The notes beneath the pieces were generated by a model that worked only from the letters and a program-made list of their open reading frames with translations, had not been told where the DNA came from and made no database searches. The translations under genes and the position numbers were made by a program. A stretch of 19,056 nt of DNA from a virus (lineage: Duplodnaviria > Heunggongvirae > Uroviricota > Caudoviricetes), in IMG/VR virus record IMGVR_UViG_2713896899_000019, positions 1 to 19,056 of that record, one strand, 5' to 3'. Below, in pieces: positions 6,605 to 12,095 of this stretch (positions within the stretch are counted from its first letter, which is position 1; each line of letters starts with the position of its first letter).

Positions 6605-7261
6605 TCAGAAAATATCCCACCTGGCATCAACCACAACACCTACTATTTCGCAATCATTGTCCATTTCTATGATTGGATATTGTGGATTAAGGGGCTTTAG
6701 AAACGCCTTTCCCATTTCAGAAATATATTTTTTGAATGTTGCTTCATTGGTAGATTTTTTTCTGGCGATGACGTAACACCCTGAAAAAACTTCTTTATCT
6801 GGGTTGACAAGGATCGACATTCCTTCAGGAAATGTTATTCCTACGGGCGAAGTCATTGAGTCTCCGTGCACTTCCAGCCAGAACCCCCTCTCTCCAGCGT
6901 ATTTTACAGAATGCCTCCAATTATCCTGATCATACATGTTGTAGTCATCACCAGCAGTTGCGAATAATCCTGCCTGAACCCAGTTAATTACAGGGTAAGA
7001 GTGTGCTGTGTCTCTCTGTGGGCAGCTCTTAACATTATTTTCCCAATGCTTATCTTTTTCATCTCCGTTCTGAAGCCACTGCGGTGAACACTGCAGTGCA
7101 GCTGCGACTTTAAAAAGGGTGTCACCGTTGAAACTTTTTGTAAGGCCTTGCTCGGCTTTACTGATTGCAACTCTGGTGACCCCTGCTTTTTTAGCCAACG
7201 CATCTTGCGTTAACCCAGCTTTTTGTCGTGCGTTGATGAGGCGTTCACCTAAAGATTTCAT
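6605..7261 (-). CDS. cI: CI-like prophage repressor (HTH-XRE N-terminal domain, LexA/S24-like C-terminal autopeptidase domain)
   Basis: The ORF track extends to 7336, but the in-frame ATG at 7261-7259 (MKSLGERLINARQKAGLTQDALAKKAGVTRVAISKAEQG…) is preceded by AAGGAGA. The C-terminus has GDSM and a downstream lysine, as in S24 peptidases. It is divergent from the cro-like gene. Confidence 0.85.
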   Translation of the reverse strand: MKSLGERLINARQKAGLTQDALAKKAGVTRVAISKAEQGLTKSFNGDTLFKVAAALQCSPQWLQNGDEKDKHWENNVKSCPQRDTAHSYPVINWVQAGLFATAGDDYNMYDQDNWRHSVKYAGERGFWLEVHGDSMTSPVGITFPEGMSILVNPDKEVFSGCYVIARKKSTNEATFKKYISEMGKAFLKPLNPQYPIIEMDNDCEIVGVVVDARWDIF

Positions 7262-7372
7262 TTTTCTTCTCCTTTCATGGCTGCTGATACTAAAGTAACA
7301 GAATTTCTTGATACTTTGGATTCTCGCGTTTAACATTCTTGGATAACAGAGTATCCGGTGTGAGGCTAAAGA
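7262..7372. promoter_or_regulatory. Immunity-region control region (putative OR with PR rightward and PRM leftward)
   Basis: Rightward promoter: -35 TTGATA (7308-7313), 17-nt spacer, -10 TAACAT (7331-7336), about 37 nt upstream of the cro-like ATG. GATAC-containing motifs at 7286 and 7310, and the palindrome GGATAacagagTATCC at 7341-7356. A leftward -10-like TAGTAT lies upstream of cI. Confidence 0.45.
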
Positions 7373-7624
7373 ATGACCCTTTATGAAATATTAAAAACTC
7401 AATTTAAGACCAATGCCGCTATTGGCCGTAGGTTCCCAAAGAAAGGAAGGCCTCGTGGTAGTCAGGGAGTTGGAAAGTGGAAAACACGGGGCGTTCCGGA
7501 GGATGTTGCCATTCTCTGCCATCTGGATCCGAACATTCCATATACACATCCAAGCTTAGCGCGCACGGGAGAGGTGAAGGGCTTGTATGTCCCAGAATTA
7601 CGTTCAGACAGAGATGCCATCTAG
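7373..7624 (+). CDS. cro: Cro-like small DNA-binding regulator
   Basis: 83-aa ORF divergent from cI, with GAGG 8 nt upstream of the ATG. The cro call rests on position and size; no motif was aligned. Confidence 0.55.
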   Translation: MTLYEILKTQFKTNAAIGRRFPKKGRPRGSQGVGKWKTRGVPEDVAILCHLDPNIPYTHPSLARTGEVKGLYVPELRSDRDAI

Positions 7625-7880
7625 GTACTGCCAGGCAGACGAAGAGTGGATTCAGCAGCAGTTACAGGGGCTGCCTCCGTCACTGAGACGGAAGGTCGCC
7701 CTGAAATATGCGGAGGTATACGAAATCACTTTTGACGCTGAGCCTGTTTCATTCCGCAAGGAGAACAGAGCAAGGCACGAAGCAAACACAAGGCTCCGCT
7801 TGTTTGTGAGAAATCAGGGCAGAGCTTTACAGGGGTATACAACTCAGCCGCCCCTGGCAGGAACGCAATCGCGCTCCTGA
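7587..7880 (+). CDS. Hypothetical protein in the cII position (97 aa; start uncertain, alternative ATG at 7614)
   Basis: ORF immediately after cro, overlapping its 3' end. No family recognised. Confidence 0.4.
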   Translation: MSQNYVQTEMPSRYCQADEEWIQQQLQGLPPSLRRKVALKYAEVYEITFDAEPVSFRKENRARHEANTRLRLFVRNQGRALQGYTTQPPLAGTQSRS

Positions 7881-7936
7881 TTGGTACCGGGCTTAAAGGT
7901 GTCCGGTGGCTGAATCCCAAATCTCATTGCATTTGT

Positions 7937-8112
7937 GTACTAGCTAAGGAGTACATGCAAAATTCAGTGAGAGGAGGGGAGGGGGAGGAGTGCTCGTGTG
8001 TTAGTGCGAAGCACTGGAACAGGCTTTTCCAACAGACGGGTACATAGGTTAGGTAGATCTCGATCTAAAGGGGGATACCTCTGAAAAAACGGCTGTACCA
8101 TAAAGCTAGTAC
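7937..8112. repeat. Inverted-repeat-bracketed non-coding element (19-bp arms) containing a polypurine G-rich tract
   Basis: Left arm GTACTAGCT-aagga-GTACA (7937-7955); right arm TGTAC-cataa-AGCTAGTAC (8094-8112), whose reverse complement is GTACTAGCT-ttatg-GTACA. Inside are a 22-nt pure-purine tract (7969-7990, GGGGAGGGGGAGG core) and an AGTGCT…AGCACT hairpin (7989-8015). Confidence 0.5.
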
Positions 8113-8129
8113 AAAATGGATAAAAAAGT

Positions 8130-8498
8130 ATGAGTGAAGACCTGAAGCAAAATTTAATCGCTCTCCTGGAAGAGCAATTCATTCGCTCCGATGACAAAGT
8201 CGTTTTCGATTATGTGATGCAGAAAAAAATCAAGTCTCAGGGATACCATCTGCAACGCAATTTCAGCATCAGCATTAGCGGTGGTCGTAAAGGGTTTATT
8301 GATTGCCTGGTTACATCATCAGACGGCCAGCAGTGTGCCATTGAGGTCGATAAGAAGTCTCCCCGCAACCGTTCGTTGATGAAGCTGGCTCAGCTACCTG
8401 AGGGGATGTCAGGCTTTGTCCTGCTCAGGGATGGTAAGCACCCTCTTCGATATAGCGAGAACGGAATTGACGTTATTCGTGCGACGAAATTTAAGTGA
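8130..8498 (+). CDS. Small PD-(D/E)xK-like nuclease-fold protein (possibly VRR-NUC-like)
   Basis: 122-aa ORF. The segment GGRKGFIDCLVTSSDGQQCAIEVDKK resembles a restriction-endonuclease-fold core (hydrophobic strand ending in D, then E-x-D/K-K). Weak RBS. It sits just upstream of the replication genes. Confidence 0.4.
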   Translation: MSEDLKQNLIALLEEQFIRSDDKVVFDYVMQKKIKSQGYHLQRNFSISISGGRKGFIDCLVTSSDGQQCAIEVDKKSPRNRSLMKLAQLPEGMSGFVLLRDGKHPLRYSENGIDVIRATKFK

Positions 8499-8609
8499 GT
8501 TGATTCGGAAAGGGGCTGGCAGCCTTTGGGGAGACCACCAGCCATGTGAGGAGGAATCCATGAAAACCACATCACAAAATTATTATCTCATCACTGCGGG
8601 GACAGCACA

Positions 8610-10268
8610 ATGCAGCTGACAATCACGCCGAATTTTGCACAGGAGCGAGCGCTAAACATGTTGCGCCGTGACTGGAAGGCAAACGACACCTTCATGGTTT
8701 ACTCGCCAACAGGTAGCGGTAAAACGGGTCTGGCAGCCTTCATCGTTGCTGGTTTTGTCAGCCGTGGTATGCGTGTTCTGTTCTGTGTTCCGTACACCAT
8801 CCTGATTGGTCAGACGGCTAATCGGTTCGTGCAGTATGGTTTACCTGGAGATGAAATCGGTTATATCTGGGCGGATCACCCGAACTACGATCCGGACCGG
8901 AAAATTCAGATTGCCAGCGCTGACACGCTTATTCGTCGTGTTTTTCCTGAAAATATCGATCTGCTGATTATCGACGAAGCGCACCTGCGTAAAAAACGCA
9001 TCCTGAAGGATATCGAACGTCTGCGCGGCAAAGGCGTAAAGGTGATTGGCCTGTCGGGTACTCCGTTTTCTCCGTTCCTGGGCAAATACTATGACCGACT
9101 GATTAAGCCGACCACCATCGGCGAGTTAATCCAGCGTGGCGATCTGAGTAAATACGAATTTTACGCGCCAACTAAGCCGGATCTGAAAGGTGTTAAAACC
9201 ACATCTTCGCTTGAGTACGGCCGCGATTACAACGAAACACAGCTGGCTGAAATCATGTGCGGCTCTACGCTGGTGGGCGACATCGTACAGAACTGGCTGG
9301 AGAATGGTCGGGATCTACCTACCATCGCTTTCTGCGTCAACGTAGCCCACGCCAATTACCTGACAATCCAGTTTAACCTCGCAGGTGTTAACGCTGAGGT
9401 AATGACCGCAGACACTCCGGTAGATGAGCGCCAGACCATCATTCACCGCTTTGAAACTGGTGCAACGAAAATCATCGTTAGTGTGGGCGTTCTGGTGGCC
9501 GGCTTTGATAGTGACGTTCGTTGCATCATCTACGCCAGGCCAACAAAAAGCGAAATTCGCTGGTTGCAGGCACTCGGGCGTGGGCTGCGCACCGCACCGG
9601 GTAAAGAGTCCTGCCTTATCTTCGATCACAGCGGCACCGTGCACCGTTTGGGTTATCCGGATTCAATCGAGTACGACGATCTTCCCGGTAAGTCTGACGG
9701 CATGGAGGAAAGCGCGCGCCGCGCAGTTGAGGAACGGGCCGAAAAACTGCCACATGAATGCCCTCAATGCCACTACATGAAGCCAGCTGGCGTCTATGTT
9801 TGCCCTAAATGTGGACACAAGCCGCTGCGAGGTGAAGATGTTGATACTGACACTAGCCGCAAACTTAATAAGCTGGGTAAAAATCAGCATCAGTCGACGA
9901 AGACAGAGAAACAGTCCTGGTGGAGTCAGATCAAATTTTATCAGCGCCAGCGTGCTTCGCTGGGGCGTCCAGTCAGTGATGGATGGTGTGCTCACACTTT
10001 CAGGGAGAAATTCGGTGAATGGCCTGATGGGTTGAGCAGTTTCCCGATGGAAATAAGCCCAGAAGTAAGTAACTACATCAAACACAAGCTGATTCGGTTT
10101 GCCAAAGGCCGTCAGCGGACGCAGAGAACTATAGAAAAATTGCAGGCAACGATTCCTCTGTCTCAGGAACGAGGTGAGCGAAGCGAGATGCCAATAGGCA
10201 CTGAGGCTTGGCGCATCATGCAAGCAAAGCAACAACTCCAGAAAAATATAAACAGTTTGAGTCAGTAA
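8610..10268 (+). CDS. Replicative SF2 (DEAD/DEAH-box) helicase with C-terminal zinc ribbon
   Basis: 552 aa. Walker A SPTGSGKT, DEAH box LLIIDEAH, motif VI QALGRGLR, and zinc ribbon CPQCHYMKPAGVYVCPKCGH. Confidence 0.85.
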   Translation: MQLTITPNFAQERALNMLRRDWKANDTFMVYSPTGSGKTGLAAFIVAGFVSRGMRVLFCVPYTILIGQTANRFVQYGLPGDEIGYIWADHPNYDPDRKIQIASADTLIRRVFPENIDLLIIDEAHLRKKRILKDIERLRGKGVKVIGLSGTPFSPFLGKYYDRLIKPTTIGELIQRGDLSKYEFYAPTKPDLKGVKTTSSLEYGRDYNETQLAEIMCGSTLVGDIVQNWLENGRDLPTIAFCVNVAHANYLTIQFNLAGVNAEVMTADTPVDERQTIIHRFETGATKIIVSVGVLVAGFDSDVRCIIYARPTKSEIRWLQALGRGLRTAPGKESCLIFDHSGTVHRLGYPDSIEYDDLPGKSDGMEESARRAVEERAEKLPHECPQCHYMKPAGVYVCPKCGHKPLRGEDVDTDTSRKLNKLGKNQHQSTKTEKQSWWSQIKFYQRQRASLGRPVSDGWCAHTFREKFGEWPDGLSSFPMEISPEVSNYIKHKLIRFAKGRQRTQRTIEKLQATIPLSQERGERSEMPIGTEAWRIMQAKQQLQKNINSLSQ

Positions 10269-10269
10269 G

Positions 10270-11238
10270 ATGAAAACAGCAGCTGCAGCGAAAGGCCGCT
10301 GGCCTGAAATATTAGAGCACTTCGGCTTGCCGCCGATAACAGGAAAAAATCACTTCAAGGGTGAATGCCCGGTATGCGGTGCACGTGGCAAGTTCCGAAT
10401 TGATGACCGCGACGGTGCAGGAACGTGGATCTGTGTATGTGGTAGTGGCGATGGTATGAAACTTGTCACCCTGACACAGGCGAAGCCATTTAACGAGATT
10501 TGTACCGAAATAGACCGCCTGATCGGTAATGATTACCAACGGGTTAAAATCCCGGTAACCAGCAGCGCCACCAGCTTACGCAAACGGGTATTGAGCAAGT
10601 TTTCAAAACTGGAGGCACTGCGTGGTACATCCGGCGCAGCGTATCTTAATTCTCGTGGAATATTCAGTCTTCCTGCTGAGGCGATCCGGTTCAATGCCAG
10701 GCAGAGACACAACGGGAGTGTGTTCCAGTCTCTTTATTCACTTGCTACGGACGATAAAGGGGAGTTGTGCTATCTGCACCAGACTCTGCTTGATGGTGAT
10801 AAAAAAGCAGATATCGGTAGCAGTGCAAAGCGCCTCAAATCCCTGCAGGAAGATAACTATTTGGATCACGCTCGTTCTGTAGCTATCCGCATGTTTCCTG
10901 TTGCTAGCACTCTGGGTATCGCCGAAGGCATCGAAACAGCGCTGTCAGCGCACCAGATTTATAACGTGAACACTTGGGCAACCATTAACAGCGGCTTTAT
11001 GAAAAAGTTCCGCGTACCAGCTGGTGTTCTGCACCTGATTATTTTTGCCGACCGTGACGAGAACAGCGCCACCGGGCTGGCTGCGGCTTGCGAATGTGCT
11101 CATGCCAATCTGATGGCAAAGAATGACCTGCAGCGCGTGAGCGTGTACTGGCCGGATCACGATGATTTCAACAATATGCTCATGAACGGTGATCAGGTTC
11201 GAGAGCTGGTTTTCCATAAGAAAAAGGCGGTTGCGTAA
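10270..11238 (+). CDS. DNA primase (zinc-binding N-terminus plus Toprim domain)
   Basis: 322 aa. Cys cluster GECPVCGARGKF…WICVCGSGDG; Toprim-like acidic motifs GIAEGIETALS and LIIFADRDEN. Start is 2 nt after the helicase stop. Confidence 0.8.
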   Translation: MKTAAAAKGRWPEILEHFGLPPITGKNHFKGECPVCGARGKFRIDDRDGAGTWICVCGSGDGMKLVTLTQAKPFNEICTEIDRLIGNDYQRVKIPVTSSATSLRKRVLSKFSKLEALRGTSGAAYLNSRGIFSLPAEAIRFNARQRHNGSVFQSLYSLATDDKGELCYLHQTLLDGDKKADIGSSAKRLKSLQEDNYLDHARSVAIRMFPVASTLGIAEGIETALSAHQIYNVNTWATINSGFMKKFRVPAGVLHLIIFADRDENSATGLAAACECAHANLMAKNDLQRVSVYWPDHDDFNNMLMNGDQVRELVFHKKKAVA

Positions 11239-12095
11239 TGCGTACTGATAACAACGAACATAAAGCACTATTCACCATCCCGACGGCAGCGTACAGCTCC
11301 GCCCTCGCAAACATCAAGCCCCTGCCAGAGCAACGGAGAATCACCGGGCATAAGCAGACTGATGCTTATCTTTGGGTGCTGGAGGTTATCCGTCTGAACG
11401 AACCCGCACATCTGGATGCTGCTGAGGCTGCGCTGGTGAAAATTAAAATTTCCCCAAAAGAGGCCCAGGAACGCTATTCGCGTTATCTGCTGGCGAATGG
11501 TGGTGATCCTTTCCAGATTGCTTTCGGTACCATCGGCATGGATAACCCGGCACAGGCAATCAGGATCGCCCGGGAGAATATCAAAAAAGCAACATCAGTC
11601 AGGGCTACGTTTGGTAGCTATGAAGCAGCACTCGAAGATGTGGAAGCCGAGCGAGTGATCAAGTCTTCCCAGAAATTTATCGACGATCATCTCTGGGGCT
11701 GGACTGCAGCCGAGAAGACAGCGGGCAGAATTGATGGCATCCGTATGAATGAAATTGATGATCAGCGTCGTGCATATGTTGATGGCTATCGTGATGTACT
11801 GCCAGAGCCTCATACATTGTCAGACGTAGTTCGTGAGTTTGTTTACTGGGACTGGCTCTACAGTGTTCGCCACACTGCGTCTAAAGAACAGGGCGATGAG
11901 TATGGTTACTCTGAGCATCACGAATCGGTATATGACCGCGAGCGCTACCTTGAAAAATTGCTGATGACCATCAAACCGGTGACACGGGCTGAAGCCGTGG
12001 AGGTGTGTCGTTGGTTTTTGGCAAGCGGAAAGGGCGAATATATGAAAGACAATGGCGCGGCTGTTATTCTTAATCTGGTTGGGGAGTGTGAATAA
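11238..12095 (+). CDS. Hypothetical phage protein (285 aa) in the nin-region position
   Basis: ORF coupled to its neighbours by TAATG overlaps at both ends; no family recognised. Confidence 0.6.
   Translation: MRTDNNEHKALFTIPTAAYSSALANIKPLPEQRRITGHKQTDAYLWVLEVIRLNEPAHLDAAEAALVKIKISPKEAQERYSRYLLANGGDPFQIAFGTIGMDNPAQAIRIARENIKKATSVRATFGSYEAALEDVEAERVIKSSQKFIDDHLWGWTAAEKTAGRIDGIRMNEIDDQRRAYVDGYRDVLPEPHTLSDVVREFVYWDWLYSVRHTASKEQGDEYGYSEHHESVYDRERYLEKLLMTIKPVTRAEAVEVCRWFLASGKGEYMKDNGAAVILNLVGECE

What the first reader, a model, noticed from the sequence alone, without database searches (positions are those of the whole stretch)
8130..8498. Small PD-(D/E)xK-like protein at the entrance of the replication operon
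The 122-aa ORF contains GFIDCLV…(10 aa)…AIEVDKK, which resembles the catalytic core of restriction-endonuclease-fold nucleases of the VRR-NUC or resolvase type. It sits just upstream of the helicase, downstream of the inverted-repeat element, with a weak RBS. It could be a replication or recombination nuclease, or a nuclease effector.
Basis: inference. Interest (0 to 1): 0.45.

Follow-up and report, generated by a model that had tools for sequence, protein, structure and literature searches.

The report
Optional nuclease-fold protein in phage replication unit
The 122-residue gene is real and folds like a restriction-enzyme-type nuclease. It is an uncharacterised, optional add-on to the helicase-primase replication unit of Fels-1 and "Eru1" Shiga-toxin phages, and the same domain is built into the middle of many phage replication-initiator proteins.

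Summary

It is not VRR-NUC or a resolvase. It has no Pfam or NCBIfam hit, only PHROG 1347 (function unknown). The conserved site is D58...E72-x-D74 plus R79, S82, K85 and R100.

Context gives three new points:
- The gene-helicase-primase trio is the "Eru1" unit of Stx2a phages such as TL-2011c and O104:H4 P13374. Their gp29 is 40% identical and is not mentioned in the two Eru papers I searched.
- The whole protein matches (hhalign 99.6%) an optional central domain in lambda-O-like, DUF1376 and other phage initiators. There it sits just after the iteron origin and just before the helicase gene.
- It is dispensable. Klebsiella phages 97-98% identical on both sides differ by its presence.

Best reading (about 0.5): an accessory origin-acting nuclease or DNA-binding factor that helps helicase loading. 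Catalysis is uncertain, because D58 is N or G in several lineages.

The parts
8130..8498 (+). 122-aa PD-(D/E)xK-fold protein (13.9 kDa, pI 9.3). Orthologue of Fels-1 STM0899 and phi467 CUW01240; homologue of TL-2011c gp29. Matches PHROG 1347 at profile positions 149-271 of 417.
8301..8303 (+). Codon D58, on strand beta2. Aligns with the catalytic Asp of the Mrr-like protein AF1548. About 94% conserved in the family, but N in P0035, P0038, P0041 and P0066, and G in about 8% of contigs carrying the listed members of the query's 90%-identity cluster (E. coli/Salmonella).
8343..8351 (+). Codons E72-V73-D74, on strand beta3. E72 aligns with the Glu of the canonical ExK motif, and the invariant D74 occupies the Lys position (an ExD variant, comparable to ExE in BamHI).
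8364..8384 (+). Helix after beta3, carrying the near-invariant R79, S82 and K85 (family motif PR-x-K/R-S-x-x-K). K85 is a candidate 'migrated' lysine.
8259..8261 (+). Codon N44. This position is Glu in 82% of the family and Asn throughout the helicase-linked clade. AF1548 also has Asn at the aligned position.
7881..8129 (+). Conserved structured non-coding element directly upstream, a candidate origin or leader. It contains a G-run tract (7968-7991), hairpins at 8004-8014 and 8017-8031, a TAGGTTAGGTAGATC block (8045-8059) that is near-identical in seven of the eight loci aligned, and a closing inverted repeat (7933-7945 with 8104-8116). It travels together with the ORF as one exchangeable segment.
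7587..7880 (+). 97-aa protein (PHROG 852, function unknown). It is found upstream of the helicase in all the Enterobacterales modules examined, with or without the 122-aa gene.
8560..8619 (+). 19-codon mini-ORF behind a strong GAGGAGG site (8548-8554). Its stop codon overlaps the helicase ATG at 8610. It is conserved in Fels-1.
8610..10268 (+). RadD-like SF2 helicase with a zinc ribbon (homologue of eru1A, 67% identical).
10270..11238 (+). Primase of the P4-alpha N-terminal type, with zinc ribbon and Toprim domain (homologue of eru1B, 57% identical).

Best explanation
The ORF encodes a small protein with a restriction-endonuclease fold. It is an accessory, non-essential component of a helicase-primase replication unit of the 'Eru1'/Fels-1 type. 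It is the free-standing form of a domain that many phage replication initiators carry between their origin-binding N-terminus and their helicase- or loader-recruiting C-terminus. Proposed mechanism: it is expressed from the early rightward operon, immediately after the conserved structured G-rich element that I take to be the origin region. It engages origin DNA in a structure-dependent way (a melted bubble, fork or R-loop) and helps the downstream RadD-like helicase and the primase gain access. It would do this by binding, possibly with metal-dependent nicking through D58, E72 and D74, with K85 and R79 supplying positive charge. Shown here: the fold, the conserved residues, the synteny, the homology to the initiator domain, and dispensability. 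Inferred: DNA as the substrate, action at the origin, interaction with the helicase, and catalysis.
Against: The gene is dispensable. Klebsiella phage ST340-VIM1phi10.1 lacks it, yet it is 98.5% and 96.7% identical to KPP5665-2 on the two sides. Serratia phage OS31 also lacks it. Only 2 of the 9 Klebsiella phage records with this helicase carry it. More distant standalone homologues are the first genes of early operons that are not next to a helicase. Catalysis is doubtful. The canonical Lys is Asp. D58 is Asn in four diverged but otherwise conserved lineages and Gly in about 8% of contigs carrying the listed cluster members. There is no experimental data on any family member; the two Eru papers do not mention gp29. 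Neither the origin of this module nor any physical contact with the helicase has been demonstrated.
Confidence: 0.5

Rival explanations
1. It is a catalytically inert scaffold. Under this reading the nuclease fold serves only as a dimerisation, DNA-binding or helicase-docking module within the replication unit, and the conserved acidic and basic residues form a structural salt-bridge network.
For: D58 is N or G in several lineages that keep every other invariant residue and the full synteny: P0035 (N44 and N58, 9 contigs), P0038, P0041 and P0066. The Lys of ExK is replaced by Asp. The domain combines with many unrelated N- and C-terminal initiator modules, as an adaptor would.
Against: Three acidic residues at the canonical metal-binding positions are kept in about 94-98% of the family, together with K85, R79 and S82. 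Inactivated PD-(D/E)xK domains usually lose these residues. ExE and ExQ variants such as BamHI and BglII are active enzymes (established knowledge), and both are among the top structural matches.
Confidence: 0.22
2. It is a selfish cassette of the homing-endonuclease type. It inserts next to, or in-frame within, replication genes beside the origin and spreads by cleaving alleles that lack it.
Against: Purifying selection is strong (dN/dS 0.08). The association with the helicase is stable across lineages 36-47% identical, and the stop codon overlaps the helicase start in TL-2011c. In-frame retention in about 35% of family clusters, with diverse partners, is atypical for homing genes. At 122 aa there is no separate DNA-recognition domain. 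Mosaic exchange at module boundaries is ordinary in lambdoid phages.
Confidence: 0.13
3. It is a defence, counter-defence or toxic nuclease effector (a moron) unrelated to replication.
For: It is optional within the module. Distant standalone homologues are first genes of early operons. There is a weak PADLOC hit to PDC-S01 at E 0.03.
Against: The PADLOC hit is not significant. There is no promoter or terminator signal above chance around the gene. The gene is coupled to the helicase and homologous to a domain embedded in initiators.
Confidence: 0.08
4. It is a VRR-NUC-type or Hjc/RusA-like junction resolvase serving recombination.
Against: There is no Pfam hit to VRR_NUC or Hjc for the ORF at E<=1. 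Better structural matches lie elsewhere. The motif differs, being ExD with no conserved Lys in beta3. Related phages carry separate NinG or RusA genes downstream.
Confidence: 0.05

Closest known systems
Mrr-like / AF1548-type restriction-endonuclease-fold proteins (Pfam Mrr_cat, PDB 1y88)
   Different: The Lys of (E/Q)xK is replaced by the invariant D74. There is an extra conserved PR-x-K-S-x-x-K helix. The Pfam Mrr_cat threshold is not reached by the ORF, and is approached only weakly by 2 remote members. The genomic context is phage replication, not restriction.
Bax1, the nuclease partner of the archaeal SF2 helicase XPB (PDB 6p4w, 6p4o, 8gy8)
   Different: There is no significant sequence similarity (E 0.76). 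Bax1 is 3-4 times larger and has a separate XPB-binding domain. The phage helicase is RadD-like, not XPB-like. The function of Bax1 is repair, not replication.
BamHI/BglII/OkrAI/BstYI type II restriction enzymes
   Different: No sequence relationship was detected. Those enzymes are 200-220 aa with DNA-recognition elements and have a cognate methyltransferase, and none is encoded here.
Eru1 replication unit of Stx phages (Llarena et al. 2021, PMC8044961: eru1A helicase, eru1B primase, eru1C)
   Same: The window's helicase and primase are 67% and 57% identical to eru1A and eru1B. TL-2011c gp29, just upstream of eru1A with a 7-nt overlap, is the 40%-identical homologue of this ORF.
   Different: The published unit, as far as my term searches of the two Eru papers show, does not include gp29, the 97-aa gene or the upstream element. 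eru1C (NinB/DUF1367) is not conserved here; an unrelated 285-aa ORF takes its place.
Lambda O / P22 gp18-type replication initiators (Pfam Phage_rep_O) and DUF1376-type initiators
   Same: A subset of these proteins contains a central domain homologous to the whole ORF (hhalign 99.6%). They occupy the same position in the early operon, directly upstream of the helicase gene and just downstream of the origin.
   Different: The ORF has neither the origin-binding N-terminal domain nor the C-terminal recruiting domain, so it is not an O protein. Lambda O and P22 gp18 themselves lack this domain.

Membership tests
PD-(D/E)xK (restriction-endonuclease-like) superfamily | Alpha-beta-beta-beta-alpha-beta core fold | tested here: met
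PD-(D/E)xK (restriction-endonuclease-like) superfamily | Acidic residue on beta2 (the 'PD' Asp) | tested here: met
   D58 is present in the ORF and aligns to the Asp of AF1548. It is 94% conserved, with N, G or A exceptions.
PD-(D/E)xK (restriction-endonuclease-like) superfamily | (D/E)-x-K on beta3 | tested here: not met
   E72 is present, but the Lys position is held by the invariant D74. K75 and K76 are not conserved. Variant motifs without the Lys are known within the superfamily, so this argues against the canonical motif and not against the fold.
PD-(D/E)xK (restriction-endonuclease-like) superfamily | Metal-dependent phosphodiester cleavage | not testable with these tools
   This needs biochemistry.
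VRR-NUC (Pfam PF08774) | Match to the family profile | tested here: not met
Hjc/archaeal-type Holliday junction resolvase (PF01870) | Match to the family profile and the E...D...ExK motif | tested here: not met
Mrr_cat / AF1548-like | Profile match above the curated threshold | tested here: inconclusive
   The ORF has no hit. Two remote members hit at E 2.8e-3. The family profile against PDB 1y88 gives E 9e-4 over helix to beta3 only.
PHROG 1347 (function unknown) | Profile match | tested here: met
   E 1.9e-62, but covering only profile positions 149-271 of 417. Full-length members are initiator-like proteins, for example P0039 over positions 1-417.
Eru1-type helicase-primase replication unit | Adjacent orthologous SF2 helicase and Toprim primase in the early right operon of a lambdoid phage | tested here: met
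Lambda O-type replication initiator | N-terminal origin-binding domain (Phage_rep_O) and C-terminal helicase- or loader-recruiting domain | tested here: not met
   The ORF corresponds only to the optional central domain. The neighbouring 97-aa protein is not homologous to any part of the initiators.
Homing endonuclease (PD-(D/E)xK class) | Sporadic presence among near-identical genomes, plus cleavage of the empty site | tested here: inconclusive
   Sporadic presence is shown. Cleavage and biased inheritance cannot be tested here.

The most novel reading that the evidence does not exclude
The domain is an origin-processing nuclease, which would be a previously unrecognised, PD-(D/E)xK-based step in initiating replication in temperate phages. 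Transcription from pR through the G-run element upstream would create a persistent R-loop or structured single strand. The protein, free-standing here and built into O-like or DUF1376 initiators elsewhere, would nick or trim that structure to give the RadD-like helicase and the primase (or DnaB in the fused systems) an entry point or a primer end. In modules lacking the gene, longer G-run arrays or host RNase H would do the same job.
Probability: 0.15. Interest if true: 0.8.

Novelty: new variant of a known kind. Interest (0 to 1): 0.5.

Why it matters
Eru1-type replication units drive the Stx2a phages of the O104:H4 and O103:H25 outbreak strains. The literature I could search states that nothing is known about how Eru phages replicate (PMC8951638). 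This work makes four contributions. First, it adds a conserved fourth gene (gp29/STM0899), a 97-aa gene and a structured cis element to that unit. Second, it shows that the small protein has a nuclease fold. Third, it links the protein to a domain hidden inside many annotated 'replication protein O' genes, where nuclease chemistry is not expected. Fourth, it provides natural ORF-plus and ORF-minus phage pairs for direct tests. If the domain acts on origin DNA, it would be a new accessory step in phage replication initiation and a possible handle on Stx phage induction.

Tried and rejected
- Direct family assignment failed. Pfam and NCBIfam gave nothing at E<=1 and PADLOC gave only E 0.03. Single-sequence and shallow-profile PDB searches gave only noise.
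- My early idea that the motif marks a DUF559/Vsr-like protein could not be tested directly. The only support is weak MTES_1575 hits in 5 remote members, and the significant sequence link is to Mrr-like AF1548 instead.
- 'Split initiator' idea, in which the 97-aa protein would be the detached origin-binding domain: rejected by hhalign, probability 0.3%.
- Bax1-XPB analogy as homology: rejected, because the helicase is RadD-like and XPB hits are marginal.
- The search for related loci with the broad alignment failed because no stretch was conserved enough. The afdb50 fold library was unavailable.
- Rfam found nothing for the upstream element. RNAalifold on five sequences was inconclusive, at -2.6 kcal/mol with a covariation term of 0.
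- Literature searches for STM0899, Eru1, DUF1376 and nuclease-fold initiators found no functional study.

Full report
**1. The observation**

The ORF runs from ATG 8130 to TGA 8498 on the + strand and encodes 122 aa. The protein is 13.9 kDa with pI 9.3. GFIDCLV is residues 55-61 and AIEVDKK is residues 70-76, so the gap between them is 8 residues, not 10.

The window is the early region of a lambdoid prophage. It is 98.8% identical to E. coli phage phi467 and 85% identical to Salmonella phage Fels-1. The gene order is:
- S24/HTH repressor, 6605-7336 (-)
- cro-like gene, 7373-7624
- a 97-aa gene, 7587-7880
- a 249-nt non-coding gap
- the ORF
- a 111-nt spacer
- SF2 helicase, 8610-10268
- zinc-ribbon/Toprim primase, 10270-11238
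- a 285-aa gene of unknown function
- antiterminator Q

The ORF is Fels-1 STM0899, annotated 'hypothetical' everywhere. It is under strong purifying selection, with dN/dS 0.08 against Fels-1. The identical protein is on 954 contigs.

**2. Fold**

Pfam and NCBIfam give nothing even at E<=1. The only family hit is PHROG 1347 (function unknown), at E 2e-62 and covering only profile positions 149-271 of 417.

At sequence level, a 35-sequence profile hits the Mrr-like protein AF1548 at E 9e-4. The alignment places D58 on its catalytic Asp and E72 on the Glu of ExK. Remote members give weak Pfam hits to MTES_1575, Mrr_cat, Hjc, NucS_C, NERD and PDDEXK_9. Superfamily membership is therefore secure. 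Membership of VRR-NUC or of a resolvase family is not supported.

**3. Conserved residues**

An exhaustive profile search found 122 cluster representatives at E<=1e-3. Across them:
- E72, D74, S82 and K85 are about 98% conserved.
- R79 is 97%, R100 95%, D58 94%, G55 96% and P78 91% conserved.
- Position 44 is Glu in 82% of the family.

The site is therefore D58...E72-x-D74, with Asp in the canonical Lys position, followed by a PR-x-(K/R)-S-x-x-K helix. Loss of the Lys is known in active enzymes such as BamHI (ExE) and BglII (ExQ). That point rests on established knowledge, not on a test here.

In the helicase-linked clade to which the ORF belongs, position 44 is Asn, as it is in AF1548. D58 is replaced by Asn in four diverged lineages that otherwise keep every invariant residue and the full synteny: P0035, P0038, P0041 and P0066. 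D58 is Gly in several alleles of the query's 90%-identity cluster, which together account for roughly 8% of the contigs listed. Catalytic competence is therefore uncertain.

**4. Context: the Eru1 unit**

A tblastn search finds the ORF in 103 phage records. Most are Stx2a-converting phages, including TL-2011c and the O104:H4 phages P13374 and phiON-2011, at about 40% identity.

In TL-2011c the homologue is gp29 (125 aa), and its stop overlaps the start of gp30 by 7 nt. gp30 and gp31 are the published eru1A helicase and eru1B primase (PMC8044961). They are 67% and 57% identical to the window's proteins.

The papers that define the Eru units do not mention gp29 or an origin. They state that nothing is known about Eru replication proteins.

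Homologues only 36-47% identical, found in other Enterobacterales contigs, show the same order: repressor, cro, 97-aa gene, gap of about 250 nt, small ORF, helicase, primase. The small ORF lies 2-55 nt from the helicase start. The helicase is closest to RadD among solved structures, at E 3e-20.

**5. Context: a domain of replication initiators**

Forty-one of 117 representatives are proteins of about 220-500 aa with the domain in the middle. Profile-profile comparison of the standalone family with ten of these gives 99.6% probability and E 6.5e-25 over residues 4-120. A plain tblastn with one fused domain finds phi467 at 2e-13.

The flanks of the fused proteins match Phage_rep_O, DUF1376, DUF6291 and Phg_2220_C. 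They also match PHROGs named 'replication initiation O-like', 'replication initiation protein', 'primosomal protein' and 'DnaD-like helicase loader'. All 40 tested also hit PHROG 1347.

The fused genes sit in the initiator slot, after cI and cro and directly before DnaC/DnaB-type genes.

P0044 is 54% identical to lambda O over its N-terminus. Its C-terminus resembles that of P22-type O proteins, which lack the insert, so the domain is optional there too. In the Providencia phage O gene, four 23-nt iterons and an A-rich stretch lie immediately upstream of the domain-coding segment. That is a lambda-like origin.

**6. The gene is optional**

Helicase orthologues occur in more phages than the ORF does. 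Klebsiella phage ST340-VIM1phi10.1 has no homologue anywhere in the locus (HMM search). It is nonetheless 98.5% identical to the ORF-bearing phage KPP5665-2 up to about 30 nt past the 97-aa gene, and 96.7% identical from 9 nt before the helicase ATG onward. Between these boundaries, one phage has 626 nt (cis element plus ORF) and the other has 268 nt (a diverged cis element only).

Serratia phage OS31 likewise goes straight from the 97-aa gene, through a G-run gap, to the helicase. Vibrio and Pseudoalteromonas phages with 56-57% identical helicases carry a winged-helix 'replication protein' or a RepL-like gene in that slot.

More distant standalone homologues are the first genes of early operons near Rad52, YqaJ, NinG or methyltransferase genes, not near helicases.

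**7. Interpretation**

What all these observations share is an autonomous, optional module with a nuclease fold that phages place immediately downstream of an origin-like element and immediately upstream of the replicative helicase gene. It occurs either as its own gene or in-frame within the initiator.

I therefore favour (about 0.5) an accessory role in replication initiation at the origin: structure-specific binding, and possibly nicking, that eases helicase and primase entry. The rivals are:
- an inert scaffold (0.22), favoured by the D58N and D58G lineages
- a homing-endonuclease-like selfish cassette (0.13), favoured by the presence/absence polymorphism but disfavoured by strong selection, stable coupling to the helicase and frequent in-frame fusion
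- a defence or toxin effector (0.08)
- a VRR-NUC or resolvase-type recombination nuclease (0.05)

None can be excluded without experiments.

**8. Novelty**

The fold is ordinary. The family has not been described: there is no Pfam or NCBIfam model, and the PHROG is of unknown function. Its active-site variant is unusual. Its link to O-like initiators and to the Eru1 unit does not appear in the literature I could search. I rate it a new variant of a known kind, interest 0.5.

Noticed in passing
window 7881-8129 (core 7968-8059): The non-coding element upstream of the ORF is better conserved than the ORF itself across modules. It has a G-run tract (GGAGGGGAGGGGGAGG) and two small hairpins with compensatory changes (GTGC-GAA-GCAC against GCGC-GAA-GCGC). 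A TAGGTTAGGTAGATC block is near-identical in seven of the eight loci aligned, down to TL-2011c. A closing inverted repeat (7933-7945 with 8104-8116) covaries: GTACTAG/CTAGTAC here, GTACCAG/CTGGTAC in Klebsiella L022. Folded as RNA it has a z-score of -3.96. There is no Rfam match. It is a candidate origin or a structured leader.
   Followed up: partly
L022 2230-2400; L021 2312-2500: Modules that lack the small ORF (Klebsiella ST340-VIM1phi10.1, Serratia OS31) have much longer arrays of G-runs, six or more runs of at least 3 G, in the same element. This hints at a trade-off between the ORF and G-quadruplex or R-loop-forming sequence.
   Followed up: no
window 7587-7880; L003 4500-4793: A 97-aa protein (PHROG 852, function unknown; invariant arginine-rich stretch R-x-x-N-R-A-R-x-x-A-N-x-R-L-R) precedes the element in all the Enterobacterales modules examined, including those without the small ORF. 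It is unannotated in TL-2011c (NC_019442). It is not homologous to any initiator domain (hhalign probability 0.3%).
   Followed up: partly
window 8514-8619: Between the ORF and the helicase there is a hairpin (GGCTGG 8514-8519 with CCAGCC 8538-8543), then a strong GAGGAGG site (8548-8554), then a 19-codon mini-ORF (8560-8619, MKTTSQNYYLITAGTAQCS). The TGA of the mini-ORF overlaps the helicase ATG. The arrangement is conserved in Fels-1 and suggests translational coupling or leader control of the helicase.
   Followed up: partly
window 8116-8133: A five-codon mini-ORF (ATG GAT AAA AAA GTA TGA) ends in a stop that overlaps the ATG of the 122-aa ORF. It is present in phi467 but not in Fels-1.
   Followed up: no
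window 8265-8279: The codons for S-I-S-I-S (agcatcagcattagc), in the beta1-beta2 loop, show length polymorphism among close alleles: +2 aa in P0002 and -2 aa in P0184. This is consistent with slippage in a 6-nt repeat.
   Followed up: no
window 11238-12095: The 285-aa ORF after the primase (PHROG 6204, function unknown, no Pfam hit) is not a conserved part of the module. TL-2011c has NinB there, and loci L013 and L014 go straight to Q.
   Followed up: no
L023 2872-3369; L001 6036-7694: There are annotation errors in public records. The small ORF is called 'helicase protein' with an extended start in Klebsiella phage KPP5665-2. The helicase is called 'type I restriction enzyme EcoKI subunit R' in phi467.
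   Followed up: no
L004 4345-4470: The O gene of Providencia phage PSTCR7lys contains four 23-nt iterons spaced 20-24 nt apart, followed by an A-rich stretch. This is a lambda-like origin encoded in the linker, directly before the inserted nuclease-fold domain.
   Followed up: partly
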